32,000 nt of DNA from Nostoc punctiforme PCC 73102 (GTDB taxonomy: Bacteria; Cyanobacteriota; Cyanobacteriia; Cyanobacteriales; Nostocaceae). The notes under the pieces were generated by a model. The model had not been told where the DNA came from. It saw only the letters and a list, made by a program, of their open reading frames with translations, and did no database searches. Positions 11,936 through 21,343 of the stretch are shown here, in pieces. The stretch is from assembly GCF_000020025.1 (NCBI RefSeq), contig NC_010628.1, positions 6,810,001-6,842,000 on the forward strand. The letters are read 5' to 3'. The translations under genes were made by a program, and so were the position numbers. Numbering within the stretch: position 1 is the stretch's first letter; each line of letters begins with the position of its first letter.

Positions 11936-12583
11936 TCAGTGGTCAGTTGTTTGGCTATTTTCCAACACCTCTAACAAACTTTTCAACATTAAATAAGCAG
12001 AAGTCCCTCCTGGATCTTGATGTCCGATACTTCTTTCCCCCAGATAGCTAGCCCGTCCTTTTTTGGCCTGCATAGGTATAGTTTCTTGTAACCCCTTTTG
12101 GGCTATTGCTACAGCCTGTTGCATCGCTTCCAGCGTTCCCTTACTTTCTCCTACAGCCTGCCCAAAAGCGGTTACAGCTGGAGATAGCACATCTACCATT
12201 GTTTTGTCTCCTAGTTGCGCTTTGCCACGTTGCAGCACGCCGTCTAAGCCTGCCTGGAGTAGCCCCAACACATCTTGTTCTGTTAATTCTTGCTTATCTA
12301 CTACTGCTGTACTAGCTCGTAAAAACCAGGTTCCATAAAGAGGGCCACTAGCACCGCCAATGGAAGAAATCAAGGTCATACTCACAGCTTTGAGAATGTT
12401 GCTGATGTCCTTGTCTGTAAGAGTTGGTAACAGAATACTTACCTTTTTGAAGCCGCGATCCATATTTATACCGTGGTCAGCATCTCCGATCGCAGCATCT
12501 AATTCTGTCAAATAGGTTTTATTCTGCTCTATCTCAGTTGCATAAGCCTGCAACCATTGTAATATCTGCGCCTGACTCAACAT
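11936..12583 (-). CDS. dhaL: Dihydroxyacetone kinase, ADP-binding subunit DhaL (Dak2 domain)
   Basis: LDAAIGDADHGINM and GGASGPLYG motifs. Preferred start is the ATG at 12583 (MLSQAQILQWL...), 2 nt after the dhaK stop codon (TAA, 12586-12588). The track's longer ORF would overlap dhaK by 43 nt. Confidence 0.9.
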   Translation of the reverse strand: MLSQAQILQWLQAYATEIEQNKTYLTELDAAIGDADHGINMDRGFKKVSILLPTLTDKDISNILKAVSMTLISSIGGASGPLYGTWFLRASTAVVDKQELTEQDVLGLLQAGLDGVLQRGKAQLGDKTMVDVLSPAVTAFGQAVGESKGTLEAMQQAVAIAQKGLQETIPMQAKKGRASYLGERSIGHQDPGGTSAYLMLKSLLEVLENSQTTDH

Positions 12584-12585
12584 AA

Positions 12586-13656
12586 TTAGTCCCACCGCCA
12601 ACTTGGTGTTTTGACTGGTGCATCCCATAACCGGATCGTTTCATCATCTAATTTCAGCAGGGTAATTGAGCAACCTTGCATTTCTAGAGATGTAATATAA
12701 GGGCCGATTAAGTTTCGCACAATTTGCAATCCTTGCTGTTCGCAGATTTGGGCGAGTTTGCGGTAAACAATATACAGTTCGGAAACCGGAGTTCCACCCA
12801 TACTATTGACGAAAGCTAATAAGCGATCGCCTTTGGTAAATGGAAGATTTGTTAGTTCTACATCTACCCATTCTCCTTTGTCTTCATCCCACTCGCGCAG
12901 TGTGCGGCTGTATGCTGCATCTTCAAGGAGCGATCGCGTTAAAATTTCGGTAATCTCATCTACTGCTTTGATAGCTGTACGTTCTATTCCTGGTTCACCG
13001 TGGATACCGATACCTAATTCGATTTCGCGATCGCTCAATTCAAATGTCGGTGTTCCATTAGCTGGCACTGTACAAGATGTTAAAGCAATTCCCATACTCC
13101 GCCCATTCAGATTAACTCGGCGACATAAATTTGCTATTTGTGGCAAATCATACCCTGCCTCAGCCGCCGCGCCACAAATTTTTTCCGCTAGTATTGTTGT
13201 TCCTACACCCCGCCGTCCTTGGGTATAGAGGCTATCCTTCACTGCTACATCATCATCAATCAAAATATTTAGCGATCGAATGCCTTCACTACGGGCTAAC
13301 TCTGTTGCCATCTCAAAGTTCATGACATCGCCACTGTAATTTTTGACGATGTAAAGGATACCAGAGCCTCCATCTACAAGCTTTGCTGCTTCTAGCATTT
13401 GGTCAGGAGTCGGTGAAGTGAAAACCTCACCAGGACAAGCTGCATCAAGCATTCCTTTGCCCACGAAGCCAGCGTGCATTGGTTCATGTCCACTGCCACC
13501 ACCTGAAATAATTGCTACTTTACCCGGAATAGGTGCATTGGCTCGATAGACAAAAGCTGGATCGTAGTTTACTTTAATTAAATCGGAATGAGCCGCCGCC
13601 ATACCTTCTAGACTTTCTCGCACAAAGTCTTCCGGCTTGTTGATCAGCTTTTTCAT
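12586..13656 (-). CDS. dhaK: Dihydroxyacetone kinase, dihydroxyacetone-binding subunit DhaK (Dak1 domain)
   Basis: 356 aa. [26 protein letters not shown] and [11 protein letters not shown] are canonical Dak1 strings. Confidence 0.95.
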
Positions 13657-15373: not shown

Positions 15374-16243
15374 ATGAGCAGTAATGATCAAATCAAAATT
15401 CTGTTTCTGGCAGCAGATCCCAGTAATGCTGCACGATTACGCTTGGGGCAAGAGTTGCGTGATATTCGTGAAAAACTGCAACTAGCAAAAGAGCGAGACA
15501 GATTTATTCTAGACTCCCGTGAATCTGTACGTCTGGGAGATATCAGCCAGGCTATATTCGATGTTGAACCGCAGATTGTGCATTTTTCTGGACATGGAAC
15601 CAGTACGGGTGAGCTTTGTTTTGAAGATTTACTAGGAGAATACCAACCTGTACAACCCGATGCTCTAGCAGCGTTATTTGAACTAGTAGCCGATCAAATA
15701 AATTGTGTGGTGTTGAATGCTTGCTATTCCGAAGCTCAAGCAAAAGCGATCGCACAACATATTTCTTTTGTCATTGGCATGAATAAAGAAATTGGAGATC
15801 AAGCCGCGATCGCTTTTGCTGTTGGTTTTTACAAAGCATTGGCAGCAAGGCGGACGATAGATCAAGCTTACAAGTTCGGTTGTGTCGAAATTAGATTGCA
15901 AGGCATTGCAGAACATTTGACTCCAGTTCTGTACACCAAACAAAACTCAGTGTCTCCAGTCTCAGAGGTACAGCAGATAGACTCCAACAAATCAACTGGA
16001 GTAACCAATGCACAGTCAACTAGTTTAAATCTGGGGCAAAGGCAGCGAATTTTACAGGAAATCGAAAGCCTCCAGCAACAGTATGATTTATTAAGTCAGA
16101 AATTGAGCCGCCTACGGTTGGATTTAGTGATAGAATCTGGCACTGTCATCAAGTTTCAGTTAGAAAAGCAGATTGAAAATGCTGAAGCTGAAAGAACACA
16201 ACTTACTCAAAGGATCGAGCAGCTAGAAAATAGCCTGCAATAA
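15374..16243 (+). CDS. Minimal CHAT/caspase-like cysteine protease domain plus a C-terminal helical adaptor module
   Basis: KILFLAADP...IVHFSGHG (His74 candidate, nt 15593-15595) and VVLNACYS (Cys117 candidate, nt 15722-15724) fit the caspase-fold His/Cys dyad arrangement of CHAT domains. Residues ~225-287 are a predicted helical hairpin homologous to the N-terminus of the next ORF. Confidence 0.75.
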   Translation: MSSNDQIKILFLAADPSNAARLRLGQELRDIREKLQLAKERDRFILDSRESVRLGDISQAIFDVEPQIVHFSGHGTSTGELCFEDLLGEYQPVQPDALAALFELVADQINCVVLNACYSEAQAKAIAQHISFVIGMNKEIGDQAAIAFAVGFYKALAARRTIDQAYKFGCVEIRLQGIAEHLTPVLYTKQNSVSPVSEVQQIDSNKSTGVTNAQSTSLNLGQRQRILQEIESLQQQYDLLSQKLSRLRLDLVIESGTVIKFQLEKQIENAEAERTQLTQRIEQLENSLQ

Positions 16244-16283: not shown

Positions 16284-17264
16284 ATGTCTTCAGTTCGGCA
16301 TTTACAGCAAAAACGGGAAGAACTTCAACAACACTACGATGCGTTTAGCGAGAAGATAAAGTTGTTGCGGAATCAACACGCCATTGAAGCGGGGGCTTCA
16401 GTAGCTTTTCAACTAGACAAAGAAATTGAGCGGGTTGAGAAAGAACGCGATCGCCTCCTGAAGCAGATTCAGATTCTTGAGAGGTCTTGCAAGAGTGAGC
16501 CAATACACAGTGAACTGTTTCGCCTCAACTACATAGCACAGGTACAGTTATTCCGAGAATTTATTACAGAAAAACGTATAGGAGCTTTCTTAGTTCATGG
16601 TTCGCCAGAATATGGTCAAATCTGGTTACTGAAGCGTTTGTTACAGAAAATTCCTGAAAGTACAGTGACTTCCCCAATCCCATTTCATCTCAAACGCAGG
16701 GCACTTAGGAGTGATATTGCAGCCCTATGGAGAGAGTTAGGCCGTCAGATCGGAGTACAAAATTTTTCATCCCATGAGGAGATTGCCAGGAATGTAGTAG
16801 CTCAATTAAAAACCCAACATATCATCCTAGTTTTTCACGATCTCGATTGCATTGATGAAACCTATCTGCACGAATTAATCCGTGATTTTTGGTTGCCCCT
16901 GGTAAACTCAACCCCACAGACAATTTGCTCAAGCAACGAATTTTTTCTACTGATGTTTTTGCTTGACCAAGATGGTTGTGTCAACACTTGGAATCTTGAG
17001 TTTGCAGATCGGTTCGATCTGGTATGGAAACCCCATATTCCCATTAGGCTACCAATGATTGACACTTTATCTGAGCAAGTCTTACTTAACTGGATGGAAA
17101 ATGCAATTGATGTTCTACCAATCCAGATGACTAAAAAAATTGACTATACAGTTCAGGTGATTTTAGAGAAGAGTGAAGGCATTCCAGAGCGTGTGTTTGC
17201 TGAAATTTTTGGTTTGTGTGGCTGTAACTGGCAGGAGGAAGAAACCCGGTGGTTAGAACTTTAG
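16284..17264 (+). CDS. Helical adaptor module plus a degenerate (probably non-hydrolysing) P-loop NTPase-like domain
   Basis: Residues 5-68 align with the C-terminus of the upstream CHAT protein. The Walker A position reads GSPEYGQI instead of G-x4-GK[ST] (nt 16599-16622). A Walker B-like IILVFHDLD is retained. Confidence 0.55.
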   Translation: MSSVRHLQQKREELQQHYDAFSEKIKLLRNQHAIEAGASVAFQLDKEIERVEKERDRLLKQIQILERSCKSEPIHSELFRLNYIAQVQLFREFITEKRIGAFLVHGSPEYGQIWLLKRLLQKIPESTVTSPIPFHLKRRALRSDIAALWRELGRQIGVQNFSSHEEIARNVVAQLKTQHIILVFHDLDCIDETYLHELIRDFWLPLVNSTPQTICSSNEFFLLMFLLDQDGCVNTWNLEFADRFDLVWKPHIPIRLPMIDTLSEQVLLNWMENAIDVLPIQMTKKIDYTVQVILEKSEGIPERVFAEIFGLCGCNWQEEETRWLEL

Positions 17265-18206
17265 ACGGAAAGCGGCTGAAATATATAGGTAAGGTTCAAC
17301 CCCAGCCAGGAGAGCAAGACCCGGAGACGGGTCAAATCTTGTATCCTTACCTGCCGAGTGAGAAATTGGTAGAGGCTGTGAATTTAGCGATCGCCCTCGA
17401 ACGCCCCTTACTATTAAAGGGAGAACCAGGATGCGGCAAGACAAAATTGGCTCGTGCTGTGGCTTATGAGTTGGGTTTACCCTATGAAGCTTGGTACATC
17501 AAATCTACCAGTCGAGCGCGGGATGGTCTTTATACTTATGATGCCGTTGGCAGGTTGCGGGATGCTCAACTTGCTGCCTCCAAAATAGATGAAGAAGCCG
17601 CAATCAAAGCAAAAAATGCTGATGACTACGTAGAGTGGGGACCGTTAGGACGTGCCTTTCGCAATGAGCAGCCAACTGTAGTTTTAATTGATGAAATAGA
17701 TAAAGCTGACATTGACTTTCCTAACGATCTGCTGTTAGAGCTTGATGAGCAAAGGTTTGAAGTCACAGAAGTAAAACAAAACAGTCCGCTCAAGAAAATT
17801 CAGGCGAAAGCAACACCAATTGTTTTGATCACTAGTAACGATGAGAAAGAAAGACTTGCCTGATGCTTTCTTACGTCGTTGTTTATTTCACTATGTTAAA
17901 TTCCCTGAACGTCAGCAATTAATTGATATTGTCAAAACTCGGTTTTCGGTTTCGCCTTTGGAATTGGTGGACGCAATTATTGACCGCTTTTTAGAACTGC
18001 GTGAAGAGATGCGGCGAGATAAGGGCGAAGCTGGTAAAAAGGTCAGTACCAGCGAACTGATGGATTGGGTGCGGATTCTTAATCATCAAGATGATGAAAT
18101 TCTCAGCAAGTTAAAAACAGAACTCTTGTATCCTGGGGTGTTGCTGAAGAGTTGGGATGATTACCGCCGCTATGGTGAACAGATGCGATCGCAGCCAGAA
18201 GTATGA
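17249..18206 (+). pseudogene. MoxR-type AAA+ ATPase (CoxD/AAA_5-like), reading frame interrupted at 17845-17863
   Basis: The first ORF (17249-17863, GTG start) carries Walker A GEPGCGKT, Walker B VVLIDEIDKAD and sensor-1 ITSN. The second ORF (17841-18206, +1 frame) continues with DLPDAFLRRCLFHYVKFP, the arginine-finger region. Together they make one ~317-aa MoxR. The stop overlaps the vWA start (ATGA). Confidence 0.9.
17845..17853 (+). other. Frameshift site in the MoxR gene: apparent 4-nt tandem duplication (GAAA GAAA)
   Basis: As written, GAT GAG AAA GAA AGA CTT GCC TGA reads DEKERLA-stop. Deleting one GAAA gives GAT GAG AAA GAC TTG CCT GAT GCT TTC, reading DEKDLPDAF, which is continuous with the downstream ORF. 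Confidence 0.7.
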
Positions 18207-19327
18207 AAATAGAAGCTCTCCACGAAGAACTACCACTGCTTGAGCTTTTTACACAACTGCGCGAGGCAGGTTTACCCTTGGGTATCGATGAATACCGCCT
18301 TGTTTTGACAGCTTTACAAGAAGGCTTTGGCACGACTGACCAAGAAGCGTTAGCAGAACTGTGCCGTACCTTGTGGGTAAAATCCCAGGATGAAGAACAC
18401 CTCTTCAACTATCACTTTCAACAAGTAATAACAGAACCTTATCCTGTAAGACCTTTTGTCAGGAAGGAAGAAGAGAAAACATCTTCCAGAATGCAAGAAG
18501 CGGTAGAAAGTGACGATAATTATTCACCTGATTTGCTCAATACAACACCGACCACTGTACCCGTTTCATCGGAATTAATGGAAGTACAGGATGAGATGCA
18601 AGTGGCTGAAGCAGTACAGATTACTACTCAAAAAAATGAGGAAATTACTGTTAATCGCTTTACCGAAACCGATGAGTATTTTCCAGTGACGCGGCGACAG
18701 ATGAAACAAAGCTGGCGGCATTTACGCCGAATGGTACGCCAAGGTTTGCCCACAAAGTTAGACATAGAGGCAACTATTGAGCAATTGGTACGGCAGGGGG
18801 TTTTGCTAGAGCCTGTACTGATGCCCAGTCGGGTAAATAGAACTGAACTACTTTTGCTGATTGATCATAAGGGATCGATGGTTCCCTTTCACGCACTATC
18901 CCAGCGATTAGCCCAGACAGCATTACGAGGCGGACGCTTAGGAAAAGCTAGTATTTACTACTTTCACAATTGCCCAACCAAGTATCTTTACCATGACCAG
19001 ACGCGCCAAAAAGCCGAACCTGTCACAGATTTTCTAGCTCAGTTGCGCCCAGACCGTTCCGCTGTATTAATTTTTAGTGATGGGGGTGCAGCACGCGGCG
19101 GTTTTAGTCTGGAACGGCTGGAGTTAACCCAAAAATTTTTAGACCAGTTGAAACAGCGATCGCGTTATATTGCATGGCTGAATCCAATGGCAACAGAGCG
19201 CTGGTTTGGCACAACAGCAGGAGAAATTGTCCGTTTAGTGCCGATGTTTGAAGTTAGCCGACAGGGTTTTGATGGTGCGATCGATGTGTTGCAGGGTCGG
19301 GGGATCAATGCACAATTAAGGTACTGA
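18203..19327 (+). CDS. vWA domain protein, CoxE-like
   Basis: The N-terminal LLELFTQLREAGLPLGIDEY...AL resembles the CoxE N-region. The C-terminal vWA has ELLLLIDHKGSM (MIDAS position) and AVLIFSDGGA. Translationally coupled to the MoxR gene by a 4-nt overlap. Confidence 0.85.
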   Translation: MKIEALHEELPLLELFTQLREAGLPLGIDEYRLVLTALQEGFGTTDQEALAELCRTLWVKSQDEEHLFNYHFQQVITEPYPVRPFVRKEEEKTSSRMQEAVESDDNYSPDLLNTTPTTVPVSSELMEVQDEMQVAEAVQITTQKNEEITVNRFTETDEYFPVTRRQMKQSWRHLRRMVRQGLPTKLDIEATIEQLVRQGVLLEPVLMPSRVNRTELLLLIDHKGSMVPFHALSQRLAQTALRGGRLGKASIYYFHNCPTKYLYHDQTRQKAEPVTDFLAQLRPDRSAVLIFSDGGAARGGFSLERLELTQKFLDQLKQRSRYIAWLNPMATERWFGTTAGEIVRLVPMFEVSRQGFDGAIDVLQGRGINAQLRY

Positions 19328-19367: not shown

Positions 19368-20936
19368 ATGAAGCCAGAAGTTGCTAGTCGTAGAATTGAG
19401 TCTTTTGGTCAACGCTTTGGGGAAACGCACCTCTACCTGGCTTACCATGCTGCTTTTCCGTTAGCCCTCACACCAGATTTGCTTTACCGCTTGTGGGCCA
19501 ATTTTCAACAAGATATTAATCATGAAGTACTAAATATCCCTTGGATGGCTGTGGCTGATTTACTACTTTCTAGCCTTTGTGATGAGGTGGGACATGAACT
19601 CTATGAGATGGATACAGCAGTACGAAATGCTTTGTTGAAAGAGTTGAGGGAGAATCCTCGTTTTGGCGAAAAGCGGATTAATGAATTGTCTGATTTTTTG
19701 CTTACCTATGTACGGCAACAACTTGATAGCTACGACCCGGATATTCGTGATTTTGCTCAGGCTCAGAAGTGGACAGCGTTAGCCTATACGCGACCAAGTG
19801 AGGCAGCGAGGGATTTAGCATCAGTTCTTGCAAGGTTGAAGTTAGAGGAAAAGGCAGAGTGGGTTCGTATGGCATTGCTGGTGGAAACTTTTGCAGAGCC
19901 ATTAGCAGAATTCCAACCTCTACTAATTTATGCTCGTGGGATGGCAAACTTTGTCTGTGGTTATCAAGAACGTGCGACAACAGAGATTACAGGGTTACTA
20001 GCAAACCAGGAGCCTCAATTACAGATTGCAGGAGTAAACCTGCCAATTCCTGAACAGATAGCTAATTCTTTTGAGGAAGTTAGGTCTATTAATCAGTTCT
20101 CAACTAACTTGACTTCTTCACAATTACCCAGTACTGTTCGCATTTTAGCTGTGGATGATGTAGCAGATAATCTCATCCTAATCCAAACAGTTTTAGAAAG
20201 TGAGGGGTATCAGATAGATTTAGCAGCAGATGGTACAACAGCTTTATCATTAGTTAAAGAATCTCCACCTGATTTAATTATCCTAGATGTAAAAATGCCA
20301 GAAATGGACGGTTATGAGGTTACACGCCGCATCCGCAATAACCATAATCTTCCCTACATTCCGATTCTACTCATCTCAGCATATTTTGAAGCTAGTGTTG
20401 TACAAGGCTTAGATATTGGAGCAAACGATTTTATTCGTAAACCTATTGATGTAGATGAGCTACTAGCAAGGGTGCGCTCGTTGTTGCGGCTAAAAAAAAT
20501 GATTGGTAAAAGTGACAAAATCGAGGATACAGTTGAGTCTACTTTCTACAATATACAAAACAATCCTCTTAGCAATCCGCTTTTTATTAGTACTTATAAT
20601 AATGAAATCAAAGATATTAAAGTTAAGGTTAGACTCTACAATCTAGCAAAAGAACTCAATGTAGACAGCCGAGATATAATGACAATATGTAAGTCTCTTG
20701 GAATTGAAGTCAAAAGCCATAGCAGCACTATTTCTAACACAGATGTTCAGCGAATTCGTGCTGCTTTTAGCAACTATTTGAAAGCTTTTGCACAATCTTT
20801 TCCTACTGAACCTATTACAGAAACAGAAACCCTAAAGGATTCACTCATCTCTCAAAATGGATTAAATTGCTCTCTGTTAGGTGAGCTTCTTACAATAAAA
20901 AATGGCAAGAAGCTGATCAAGAAACCGCACGATTAA
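19368..20936 (+). CDS. Multidomain protein: unknown N-terminal helical domain (~aa 1-235), receiver (REC) domain (aa ~257-377), IF2 N-terminal-like domain (aa ~417-467)
   Basis: REC: ILAVDDVADN, DLIILDVKMPEMDG (Asp307), ILLISA, FIRKP. IF2_N-like: VKVRLYNLAKELNVDSRDIMTICKSLGIEVKSHSSTISNTDVQRIRAAF, very close to the extreme N-terminus of cyanobacterial IF-2 as I recall it. The last ~15 residues look like frame-shifted read-through. Confidence 0.85.
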   Translation: MKPEVASRRIESFGQRFGETHLYLAYHAAFPLALTPDLLYRLWANFQQDINHEVLNIPWMAVADLLLSSLCDEVGHELYEMDTAVRNALLKELRENPRFGEKRINELSDFLLTYVRQQLDSYDPDIRDFAQAQKWTALAYTRPSEAARDLASVLARLKLEEKAEWVRMALLVETFAEPLAEFQPLLIYARGMANFVCGYQERATTEITGLLANQEPQLQIAGVNLPIPEQIANSFEEVRSINQFSTNLTSSQLPSTVRILAVDDVADNLILIQTVLESEGYQIDLAADGTTALSLVKESPPDLIILDVKMPEMDGYEVTRRIRNNHNLPYIPILLISAYFEASVVQGLDIGANDFIRKPIDVDELLARVRSLLRLKKMIGKSDKIEDTVESTFYNIQNNPLSNPLFISTYNNEIKDIKVKVRLYNLAKELNVDSRDIMTICKSLGIEVKSHSSTISNTDVQRIRAAFSNYLKAFAQSFPTEPITETETLKDSLISQNGLNCSLLGELLTIKNGKKLIKKPHD

Positions 20937-21343
20937 TTATTTCGATTGCTGCCGCAGAGAGACAAGGTTGGCTTGGTGTAGAGGAGTTGAAAAATTTTTC
21001 CTGTCAAAATTTACGAACAATTGATCAGCTTTGGGTAAAATACAGTAATGGGAATTTTGGTTTTAGTGTGCAGCAAACTATATGGGAAAGTATTGGATTC
21101 GCTAACAACGTTAGAGACTATTCTATGTGGTGGAATTTTGGTAATCTCGTAGGATGGCGTGTAAAAGATAGATGGCTACCCTACGAACGAATACAATTTA
21201 CAGCCCAAGCTCCCAAAGGACATCTGCCATTTTTTAGAGCATGGATAGGAATGAGAAAAACAGGGCTTGTACATTCAATGCATCAAGTCAATCGTTTTCA
21301 TGCATTTATGTATAGGTGCGCGTTTTGTCACCTGACTCAATAA
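20885..21343 (+). pseudogene. GUN4-like domain reading frame, out-of-frame continuation of the preceding ORF (-1 frame). No credible start codon of its own.
   Basis: The frame opens after the TGA at 20882-20884 and reads ASYNKKWQEADQETARLIISIAAAERQGWLGVEELKNFSCQNLRTIDQLWVKYSNGNFGFSVQ...GWRV...APKGHLPF. This is the typical GUN4-like domain with its upstream W-x-EAD-x-ET helix. The track ORF starts only at a TTG (20987), in the middle of the homologous region. Confidence 0.8.
20897..20903 (+). other. A AAA AAT heptamer at the junction of the REC/IF2_N frame and the GUN4 frame
   Basis: In the upstream frame the codons are ATA AAA AAT GGC. The GUN4 frame reads AAT AAA AAA TGG. One extra A, or a -1 slip on A AAA AAT, joins ...LLGELLTIK to WQEADQET... 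Confidence 0.7.

What the first reader, a model, noticed from the sequence alone, without database searches (positions are those of the whole stretch)
20885..20936. REC/IF2_N ORF continues into a GUN4-like domain only via a -1 shift on an A AAA AAT heptamer
Seen: homology to GUN4-like proteins (the W-x-EAD-x-ET-A-R helix preceding LRTIDQLWVKYSNG.FGFSVQ) begins at the TGG at 20903, 84 nt upstream of the only possible (TTG) start of the track ORF. That frame is closed by the TGA at 20882. The upstream ORF in the 0 frame reads ...LLGELLTIK-NGKKLIKKPHD-stop, so the two frames overlap by about 50 nt. The switch point coincides with ATA AAA AAT, that is A AAA AAT, which fits the X XXY YYZ pattern of bacterial -1 programmed frameshift sites (as in dnaX and IS elements). 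A seventh A would fuse the frames directly into a ~658-aa protein ending in GUN4. Three alternatives remain: a homopolymer sequencing error, a real 1-nt deletion (pseudogene or phase-variable tract), or programmed -1 frameshifting that yields short (REC/IF2_N) and long (plus GUN4) isoforms.
Basis: partly seen in the sequence, partly recalled or inferred. Interest (0 to 1): 0.7.

Follow-up and report, generated by a model that had tools for sequence, protein, structure and literature searches.

The report
Frameshift mutation splitting a GUN4 gene
The break between the response-regulator ORF and the GUN4 ORF is a real one-base deletion in Nostoc punctiforme, in an operon that carries a second frameshift, so it is most likely an ordinary recent gene-inactivating mutation and not programmed ribosomal frameshifting.

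Summary
A 522-aa ORF (19368..20936: unnamed N-domain, REC, IF2_N) runs into a -1 frame, open from 20885, that encodes a GUN4 domain. The break lies on ATA AAA AAT (20895-20903). The window is Nostoc punctiforme PCC 73102, where the GUN4 piece is annotated as Npun_F5528.

It is not a sequencing error. Three independent read assemblies are base-identical to the window, and the truncated products occur on 57-98 public contigs. No repaired version occurs anywhere.

It is not a conserved recoding site. Two syntenic orthologues (Nostoc minutum NIES-26, 658 aa; Nostoc sp. DedQUE09, 723 aa) carry one uninterrupted ORF. Both read AGA TGG (Arg-Trp) where N. punctiforme reads A-A TGG. Loss of that G is the only indel against NIES-26 in 1976 nt, and it created the "slippery" heptamer. 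The ancestral state was therefore not A7.

There is no downstream stimulatory structure and no Rfam frameshift element, and the heptamer occurs at chance frequency.

The MoxR ATPase gene of the same operon is also broken, by a 4-nt GAAA duplication (17845-17852) that is absent from the orthologues. The same locus is further decayed in other Nostoc genomes.

Verdict: a recent frameshift mutation in the variable effector gene of an iSTAND-type MoxR-vWA conflict system. Low interest.

The parts
19368..20936 (+). Frame-0 ORF of 522 aa (GenBank ACC83833.1). It holds a conserved all-alpha N-domain (about residues 1-235, no Pfam model), REC (259-370), IF2_N (420-467), the first about 15 residues of GUN4, and then an 11-residue out-of-frame tail, NGKKLIKKPHD.
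20885..21343 (+). Segment open in the -1 frame that encodes the rest of the GUN4 domain and a conserved C-terminal tail. GenBank annotates part of it as Npun_F5528 (118 aa, TTG start at 20987). RefSeq annotates a 132-aa protein, WP_419788446.1, whose sequence corresponds to a start at the ATT codon at 20945.
20897..20903 (+). A AAA AAT heptamer, the site of the lesion. One base (the G of an ancestral AGA Arg codon) is missing between 20901 and 20902, relative to ACA ATA AAA AGA TGG in NIES-26 and GCA GTA GGA AGA TGG in DedQUE09.
20879..20884 (+). SD-like AGGTGA, 12 nt upstream of the heptamer. It is specific to N. punctiforme (NIES-26 has ACGTGA, DedQUE09 has ACAGGA) and is probably coincidental.
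   Evidence: read from the sequence
17249..18206 (+). MoxR-type AAA+ ATPase gene, split into 204-aa and 121-aa ORFs (ACC83830.1 and ACC83831.1).
17845..17852 (+). Tandem GAAA GAAA. This 4-nt duplication is absent from both orthologues (GATGAGAAAGAC) and breaks the MoxR reading frame just before the conserved LPDAFLRRC motif.
18203..19327 (+). CoxE-type vWA protein (374 aa), intact.
16284..17264 (+). EAD9-like coiled coil followed by the iSTAND protein (326 aa), intact.
15374..16243 (+). CHAT peptidase-like protein (289 aa). Its C-terminal EAD9-like coiled coil matches the iSTAND N-terminus.

Best explanation
The break is a genuine, evolutionarily recent single-base deletion in Nostoc punctiforme PCC 73102. 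The G of an AGA Arg codon was lost, turning AAAAAGATGG into AAAAAATGG.

The gene it interrupts encodes a 658-aa protein: N-domain, REC, IF2_N and GUN4. This is the fifth gene, and the variable effector/sensor gene, of an iSTAND-type MoxR-vWA ternary conflict operon (CHAT, EAD9-iSTAND, MoxR, vWA, effector).

Normal translation now stops 11 codons after the lesion. The product is a 522-aa protein with only the first helix of GUN4. The remaining GUN4 coding sequence is a stranded, out-of-frame remnant with no convincing start signal of its own.

The MoxR ATPase gene of the same operon carries an independent 4-nt duplication frameshift. The system as a whole is therefore most likely inactive and at an early stage of decay.

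Shown here: the deletion, the duplication, their reproducibility across assemblies, the intact orthologues, and the absence of frameshift stimulators. Inferred: loss of function, and that the slippery look of the site is an accident of the deletion.
For: 1. Identity of the window. The 522-aa product is ACC83833.1 of N. punctiforme PCC 73102.

2. Reproducibility.
- Logan assemblies of SRR8435170, SRR8435155 and SRR21010780 are 100% identical to the window over 5.3-7.6 kb. That span includes the A6 tract in all three and the MoxR site in the two that reach it.
- Exact look-up finds the 522-aa product on 57 contigs, the MoxR fragments on 98 and 84 contigs, and a 72-aa GUN4 fragment on 81 contigs.
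- The repaired 658-aa (Lys or Arg) and 317-aa MoxR proteins are absent from about 15 billion sequences.

3. Intact syntenic orthologues.
- NIES-26 L005 4819..6795 is one ORF of exactly 658 aa.
- DedQUE09 L004 6870..9041 is one ORF of 723 aa.
- Both lie between the vWA gene and ctaB.

4. The DNA alignment shows a single 1-nt gap in N. punctiforme at the A-tract. It is the only indel against NIES-26 over 1976 nt, and both orthologues read AGA TGG there.

5. The GUN4 profile match spans the shift.

6. MoxR has a GAAA duplication in N. punctiforme only. The orthologues are 318 aa, and the AAA_5 match becomes full length (1-139) once the gene is repaired.

7. No signs of programmed frameshifting.
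- RNA downstream of the heptamer folds no better than shuffled sequence (z = +0.9 to +1.2).
- There is no Rfam frameshift element.
- The heptamer count is at chance.
- There is no + strand promoter-like site or terminator around the GUN4 remnant.
- The only SD-like AGAGGAG directly abuts the TTG at 20987, with zero spacing.

8. The same locus is visibly decaying in other Nostoc. In L167-L169 MoxR is split into 176 (or 142) + 125 aa, vWA is a 41-aa stub, and the effector is gone.
Against: - Downstream of the lesion the GUN4 frame is still fully open to the same stop codon as in NIES-26.
- That stretch shows only 3 non-synonymous and 4 synonymous N. punctiforme-specific changes. There is no accumulated decay, which fits a very recent mutation but would also fit continued use of the frame.
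- The deletion happens to leave a formal X XXY YYZ heptamer, with an SD-like AGGTGA 12 nt upstream. From my own knowledge, that spacing is in the range that stimulates -1 shifting at E. coli dnaX. Some adventitious slippage cannot be excluded.
- No protein-level or ribosome-profiling data were available.
Confidence: 0.85

Rival explanations
1. Programmed -1 ribosomal frameshifting on A AAA AAU yields a short (REC/IF2_N) and a long (+GUN4) isoform as an evolved feature.
For: The heptamer has the X XXY YYZ form in the 0 frame, and the frames overlap by 52 nt. An SD-like AGGTGA lies 12 nt upstream. The GUN4 frame is still intact.
Against: - Both syntenic orthologues are in frame with A AAA AGA / A GGA AGA, so there is no slippery site, and the heptamer was created by the deletion.
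- The SD-like motif is not conserved.
- There is no downstream structure and no Rfam element.
- The shift falls inside the GUN4 domain, not at a domain boundary.
- A second, non-slippery frameshift breaks MoxR in the same operon.
- In E. coli the efficient heptamers end in A_AAG. A_AAA_AAC is reported as inefficient, and A_AAA_AAU is not in the authors' list of 18 motifs that are both under-represented in E. coli genes and more than 0.1% efficient without a stimulator (PMC4066793).
Confidence: 0.04
2. Homopolymer sequencing or assembly error; the real genome has an intact 658-aa gene.
For: The break lies in an A-run, a classic error context.
Against: - Independent Logan read assemblies are base-identical to the window.
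- The frameshifted products occur on 57-98 contigs and the repaired ones on none.
- The missing base is a G, not an extra A.
Confidence: 0.01
3. Phase-variable (contingency) switch: the A-tract and the GAAA repeat expand and contract to turn the system on and off.
For: Both lesions are slipped-strand-type indels in short repeats, so in principle they can revert. Conflict systems are costly, so on/off switching would be plausible.
Against: - The tracts are very short (A6 and two copies of GAAA).
- The orthologues have no repeat tract at all (A5G and a single GAAA).
- No length variant is seen in any public assembly of the strain.
Confidence: 0.03
4. Gene fission: the truncated 522-aa REC/IF2_N protein and a stand-alone GUN4 protein (RefSeq WP_419788446.1, 132 aa; or Npun_F5528, 118 aa) are both made and functional.
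For: Databases annotate a separate GUN4 ORF, and the frame is intact.
Against: - The candidate starts are ATT or TTG.
- The TTG has its SD-like AGAGGAG at zero spacing. That sequence is simply the conserved coding sequence V-E-E-L, also present in the orthologues.
- There is no + strand promoter-like site upstream.
- Such a product would lack the first about 40-55 residues of the GUN4 domain.
Confidence: 0.05

Closest known systems
Ordinary frameshift pseudogene or split gene arising by a slipped-strand indel
   Same: There is a single-base loss relative to intact syntenic orthologues and a premature stop 11 codons later. The downstream part is stranded out of frame. A second indel lies in a neighbouring gene of the same operon.
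   Different: Very young. There are no further disabling changes downstream, so it still reads like two clean ORFs and is annotated as such.
dnaX / IS3-family programmed -1 frameshift sites (A AAA AAG plus upstream SD plus downstream hairpin)
   Same: The site is an A-rich X XXY YYZ heptamer with an SD-like hexamer 12 nt upstream.
   Different: - The heptamer ends in U, not G.
- There is no downstream hairpin.
- Neither the heptamer, the SD-like motif nor the two-frame layout is conserved.
- The shift interrupts a domain instead of joining two modules.
iSTAND-type MoxR-vWA ternary conflict systems (Kaur, Burroughs, Iyer, Aravind 2020, eLife; PMC7159879)
   Same: - The operon has an iSTAND protein (PF19995, 2.9e-37), a MoxR AAA+ and a CoxE-type vWA.
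- It has a CHAT effector, with an EAD9-like pair shared between CHAT and iSTAND.
- The last gene carries swappable effector domains.
- The paper lists GUN4 as a cyanobacteria-only domain and REC as a sporadic effector domain among the effector domains of the related VMAP-type MoxR-vWA systems.
   Different: - The variable effector is a separate gene with its own conserved roughly 235-aa all-alpha N-domain, not a C-terminal extension of vWA.
- The REC-IF2_N-GUN4 combination was found in only three genomes.
- In this strain two of the five genes are frameshifted.
'Savior' indel correction by adventitious frameshifting or transcriptional slippage (review PMC5009743)
   Same: A 1-nt deletion inside a run of A's could be partly corrected by -1 slippage.
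   Different: There is no evidence here that correction occurs. The A6 run is short for transcriptional slippage (my own knowledge), and the broken MoxR gene would still disable the system.

Membership tests
Programmed -1 ribosomal frameshift site | Slippery X XXY YYZ heptamer in the 0 frame at the frame junction | tested here: met
   A AAA AAT at 20897-20903, with codons ATA AAA AAT. The motif is at chance frequency in the window.
Programmed -1 ribosomal frameshift site | Conservation of the slippery site and of the two-frame gene layout in orthologues | tested here: not met
   NIES-26 (658 aa) and DedQUE09 (723 aa) are single ORFs that read AAA AGA TGG and GGA AGA TGG.
Programmed -1 ribosomal frameshift site | Downstream stimulatory hairpin or pseudoknot a few nt after the heptamer | tested here: not met
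   Folds of 20904-20963, 20904-20993 and 20897-21020 are weaker than shuffles (z = +0.92, +1.22, +1.02). There is no Rfam hit.
Programmed -1 ribosomal frameshift site | Upstream SD-like stimulator at suitable spacing | tested here: inconclusive
   AGGTGA at 20879-20884 lies 12 nt upstream, but it is absent from the orthologues (ACGTGA, ACAGGA). It is a single hexamer and could be chance.
Programmed -1 ribosomal frameshift site | Trans-frame protein product | not testable with these tools
   This needs proteomics, ribosome profiling or a reporter assay. No paper mentions Npun_F5524-F5528.
Frameshift pseudogene | An indel relative to intact syntenic orthologues, exactly at the frame break | tested here: met
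   A 1-nt gap at 20901/20902 is the only indel against NIES-26 in 1976 nt.
Frameshift pseudogene | The lesion is real, that is reproducible in independent sequencing | tested here: met
Frameshift pseudogene | Signs of relaxed selection or further lesions | tested here: inconclusive
   A second frameshift lies in MoxR of the same operon. No extra lesions or raised N/S are seen downstream of the break (3 N / 4 S, too few to test).
iSTAND-type MoxR-vWA ternary system | MoxR AAA+, CoxE-type vWA and iSTAND genes in one operon | tested here: met
   PF19995 iSTAND 2.9e-37, AAA_5 and bpMoxR hits, and VWA_CoxE 1.6e-12. The same order is seen in L004, L005, L165 and L170.
iSTAND-type MoxR-vWA ternary system | Matching effector-associated domain (EAD) on the core component and on an effector | tested here: met
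   The CHAT C-terminus and the iSTAND N-terminus are 45% identical over 62 aa (E = 2e-15). The Pfam EAD9 hits are below the cut-off (E about 0.002).
iSTAND-type MoxR-vWA ternary system | Hypervariable effector module | tested here: met
   The same syntenic slot holds REC-IF2_N-GUN4 (window, L004, L005), a P-loop NTPase (L165) or a caspase (L170). All share the same N-domain.
GUN4 domain (PF05419) | Significant match to the family profile | tested here: met
   E = 6.1e-37, profile positions 3-133 of 141 in the repaired protein.
GUN4 domain (PF05419) | Tetrapyrrole binding | not testable with these tools
   Biochemical.
Phase-variable contingency locus | Long simple-sequence tract with length polymorphism | tested here: not met
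   The tracts are only A6 and (GAAA)2. The orthologues lack them, and no variant product occurs in public assemblies.

The most novel reading that the evidence does not exclude
The deletion-created A AAA AAU heptamer, helped by the fortuitous SD-like AGGTGA 12 nt upstream, supports enough -1 slippage to keep producing some full-length REC-IF2_N-GUN4 protein. That would be a 'savior' frameshift caught at birth. It would explain why the GUN4 frame is still pristine, and it would show how a programmed frameshift site can originate from a lesion.
Probability: 0.05. Interest if true: 0.45.

Novelty: already known. Interest (0 to 1): 0.12.

Why it matters
Mostly as a caution. A clean X XXY YYZ heptamer at a frame junction is not evidence of recoding, because a one-base deletion in an AT-rich gene can create one.

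For annotation, ACC83833.1 and Npun_F5528 (plus the RefSeq 132-aa GUN4 protein) are two pieces of one disrupted gene. ACC83830.1 and ACC83831.1 are likewise two pieces of a disrupted MoxR gene.

Biologically, this is a small, well-documented example of how MoxR-vWA-iSTAND conflict systems turn over in Nostoc. At one syntenic locus the effector is swapped between strains (REC-IF2_N-GUN4, P-loop NTPase, caspase), and the system is lost by frameshifts and deletions.

Tried and rejected
- **Downstream stimulatory RNA structure.** Three windows were folded and none beat shuffled sequence.
- **Rfam scan for frameshift elements.** The only hit was a meaningless sub-threshold mir-15 match.
- **Enrichment of the heptamer.** None found.
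- **Independent promoter or terminator for the GUN4 remnant.** None on the + strand.
- **More orthologues.** The metagenome scan gave nothing closer than 44% identity. The genome scan added only NIES-26. The protein search added only DedQUE09.
- **Test for relaxed selection after the break.** There are too few lineage-specific substitutions to say anything.
- **Suspected third frameshift between Dak1 and Dak2** (12586..13656 and 11936..12628, minus strand). Rejected: they are separate genes in the orthologous loci too.
- **Identity of the N-domain.** There is no Pfam hit even at E<10. The AlphaFold model is an all-alpha helical repeat with no PDB match better than E=0.13.
- **Literature on Npun_F5524-F5528, the accession numbers and the SRR run ids.** Nothing found.
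- **Nature of the Logan runs (RNA or DNA).** I could not establish this, so I draw no conclusion about transcription.
Full report
**What is in the sequence**

- The ORF 19368..20936 (522 aa) ends ...LLGELLTIKNGKKLIKKPHD*.
- The -1 frame is closed by the TGA at 20882-20884. It is then open from 20885 to the stop at 21341-21343.
- That frame reads ASYNKKWQEADQETARLIIS...LRTIDQLWVKYSNGNFGFSVQ....
- The two frames overlap by 52 nt.
- The A6 run is 20897-20902. The 0-frame codons ATA AAA AAT give the heptamer A AAA AAT (20897-20903).

Pfam assigns REC (E=3.5e-29) and IF2_N (E=3.9e-13) to the 522-aa ORF. It assigns GUN4 (E=6.5e-36, profile positions 17-133) to the -1 frame.

When the two frames are joined by one extra base, the protein is 658 aa and the GUN4 match lengthens to profile positions 3-133. 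The GUN4 domain therefore starts about 15 residues upstream of the A-tract in frame 0 and straddles the break.

The heptamer is not special in this AT-rich DNA: 25 copies in the window against 20.2 +/- 3.8 expected.

**Where the window comes from, and whether the break is real**

The 522-aa product is ACC83833.1 of Nostoc punctiforme PCC 73102. The downstream ORF is Npun_F5528. RefSeq now lists it as a 132-aa "GUN4 domain-containing protein"; matched to the window, its sequence starts at the ATT codon at 20945.

Three assemblies made independently from public read sets (SRR8435170, SRR8435155, SRR21010780) are base-for-base identical to the window over 5.3-7.6 kb, including the A6 tract.

Exact-sequence look-up gives the following:

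| Product | Public contigs |
|---|---|
| 522-aa truncated protein | 57 |
| 72-aa GUN4 fragment | 81 |
| Repaired 658-aa protein (Lys or Arg at the junction) | none, in about 15 billion sequences |

A sequencing error is excluded.

**What the orthologues show**

Two other Nostoc genomes carry the same gene at the same place, between the vWA gene and ctaB/ctaA/coxBAC.
- In Nostoc minutum NIES-26 it is one ORF of exactly 658 aa (L005 4819..6795).
- In Nostoc sp. DedQUE09 it is one ORF of 723 aa, with IF2_N tandemly duplicated (L004 6870..9041).

The nucleotide alignment at the junction is:

| Genome | Sequence | Residues |
|---|---|---|
| NIES-26 | ACA ATA AAA AGA TGG | T I K R W |
| DedQUE09 | GCA GTA GGA AGA TGG | A V G R W |
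| N. punctiforme | ACA ATA AAA A-A TGG | frame broken |

This 1-nt gap is the only indel between N. punctiforme and NIES-26 over 1976 aligned bases (85% identity). The lost base is the G of an Arg codon.

Three things follow.
- The intact state is AAAAAGA, not A7.
- The "slippery" heptamer did not exist before the deletion; the deletion made it.
- Neither orthologue has a two-frame layout or a slippery site.

This fails the conservation criterion for programmed frameshifting.

**Other frameshift signals**

- RNA downstream of the heptamer folds less well than shuffled controls (z = +0.9 to +1.2).
- No Rfam family matches.
- An SD-like AGGTGA lies 12 nt upstream (20879-20884). From my own knowledge, this spacing resembles that at dnaX. 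It is specific to N. punctiforme (ACGTGA and ACAGGA in the orthologues) and is a single hexamer.
- In E. coli the efficient -1 heptamers end in A_AAG. A_AAA_AAC is reported as inefficient. A_AAA_AAU is not in the authors' list of 18 motifs that are both under-represented in E. coli genes and more than 0.1% efficient without a stimulator (PMC4066793).
- Low-level adventitious slippage on such a site cannot be excluded. The concept of translational correction of indels is established (PMC5009743, abstract seen). Nothing here indicates that it occurs.

**The operon context settles the matter**

The gene is the fifth in the operon. The genes are:

| Gene | Coordinates | Note |
|---|---|---|
| CHAT | 15374..16243 | |
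| EAD9-like + iSTAND | 16284..17264 | PF19995, E=2.9e-37 |
| MoxR AAA+ | 17249..18206 | split |
| CoxE-type vWA | 18203..19327 | |
| Effector | 19368..21343 | split |

This is the iSTAND class of MoxR-vWA ternary conflict systems described by Kaur et al. 2020 (PMC7159879). In that paper's survey of the effector domains of the related VMAP-type MoxR-vWA systems, GUN4 is listed as confined to cyanobacteria and the receiver domain as a sporadic effector domain. The CHAT C-terminus and the iSTAND N-terminus share a coiled-coil module (45% identity, E=2e-15). That fits the paper's rule of paired effector-associated domains.

The MoxR gene of N. punctiforme is itself split into 204-aa and 121-aa ORFs.
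- The alignment shows a 4-nt tandem duplication: GATGAGAAAGAAAGAC against GATGAGAAAGAC in both orthologues, which encode 318 aa.
- The duplication lies just before the conserved LPDAFLRRC motif.
- Repairing it restores a full-length AAA_5 match.
- This lesion too is reproduced in independent assemblies and on 84-98 contigs.

Two independent frameshifts in one five-gene operon, both absent from the orthologues, point to inactivation and not to recoding.

**The locus is volatile in Nostoc generally**

The same syntenic slot carries different fifth genes in different strains, all with the same N-domain.
- In Nostoc sp. ATCC 53789 it is fused to a P-loop NTPase (L165 8132..10171, 679 aa).
- In another Nostoc it is fused to a caspase (L170 6001..7641).

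In uncultured Nostoc MAGs the system is largely gone: MoxR is split into 176 (or 142) + 125 aa, vWA is a 41-aa stub, and there is no effector (L167-L169).

More than 2500 proteins share the roughly 235-aa N-domain with many different C-terminal modules: caspase, CHAT, FGE-sulfatase, MORN, CHASE2, TIR, Macro, HisKA and GUN4. The domain has no Pfam model. It is predicted to be an all-alpha helical repeat with no solved relative.

**What argues the other way**

The GUN4 frame downstream of the break is still clean. It ends at the same stop codon as in NIES-26.

Only 3 non-synonymous and 4 synonymous changes specific to N. punctiforme lie downstream of the break. This is too few to test selection. 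It says the lesion is young, which is also what continued use of the frame would look like. No proteomic or ribosome-profiling evidence was available, and no paper mentions these genes.

A stand-alone GUN4 protein is unlikely.
- The candidate starts are ATT and TTG.
- The only SD-like sequence abuts the TTG with zero spacing, and it is simply conserved coding sequence.
- There is no + strand promoter-like site upstream.
- Such a product would lack the first helices of the domain.

**Verdict**

The others rate as follows: programmed -1 frameshifting about 0.04, phase variation about 0.03, functional gene fission about 0.05, sequencing error about 0.01.

The feature is an ordinary, recent frameshift mutation in a known kind of system that turns over rapidly. 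It is already visible as split genes in the public annotation. Interest is low.

Noticed in passing
window 17249-18206 (duplication at 17845-17852): The MoxR AAA+ ATPase gene of the same operon is split into 204-aa and 121-aa ORFs by a 4-nt GAAA tandem duplication. The duplication is absent from the orthologues (318 aa) and is reproduced in independent assemblies.
   Followed up: yes
L165 8132-10171; L170 6001-7641; L005 4819-6795; L004 6870-9041: The fifth gene at this syntenic locus (between vWA and ctaB) is an effector-swap slot. It keeps the same roughly 235-aa N-domain, followed by REC-IF2_N-GUN4, a P-loop/KAP-like NTPase (ATCC 53789) or a caspase (GCA_029379315.1).
   Followed up: partly
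L167, L168, L169 (e.g. L168 2965-4039): In uncultured Nostoc MAGs the same locus is decayed. MoxR is interrupted (176 or 142 aa + 125 aa), vWA is reduced to a 41-aa N-terminal stub, and the effector gene is deleted, so ctaB follows directly.
   Followed up: partly
window 19368-20087 (residues 1-240 of the 522-aa ORF): This conserved N-terminal domain is shared by more than 2500 cyanobacterial proteins with many different C-terminal effector domains. It has no Pfam model. AlphaFold predicts an all-alpha helical repeat (pLDDT 74) with no PDB match better than E=0.13.
   Followed up: partly
L005 4026-4723: In Nostoc minutum NIES-26 a Gp49 (HigB-like) / HTH_37 gene pair, probably a type II toxin-antitoxin module, is inserted between the vWA gene and the effector gene. 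It is absent from N. punctiforme and DedQUE09.
   Followed up: partly
L004 6870-9041: In Nostoc sp. DedQUE09 the IF2_N module is tandemly duplicated (a 186-nt insertion relative to the other two). The public annotation (WP_322667768.1) covers only the last 346 aa of what is an open 723-aa ORF.
   Followed up: partly
window 20945-21343: RefSeq lists the GUN4 remnant as a 132-aa protein (WP_419788446.1) whose sequence corresponds to a start at the ATT codon at 20945. GenBank uses the TTG at 20987 (Npun_F5528, 118 aa). Both are best treated as the 3' part of one disrupted gene.
   Followed up: yes
window 15374-16243 (C-terminal about 70 aa) and 16284-17264 (N-terminal about 70 aa): The CHAT protein's C-terminus and the iSTAND protein's N-terminus share a coiled-coil module (45% identity over 62 aa, E=2e-15). 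It matches Pfam EAD9 only weakly (E about 0.002, below the cut-off).
   Followed up: yes
window 11936-13656, minus strand: The Dak1 (356 aa) and Dak2 (230 aa) ORFs overlap by 43 nt in different frames and looked like a possible third frameshift. They are separate genes in all the orthologous loci as well, so this is normal.
   Followed up: yes
PADLOC hit on L005 4819-6795: The GUN4 domain matches a PADLOC model of the PD-T4-6 defence kinase family (PDLC04062, E=2.2e-36, profile positions 303-431). At least that model therefore appears to cover a GUN4-like C-terminal domain.
   Followed up: no
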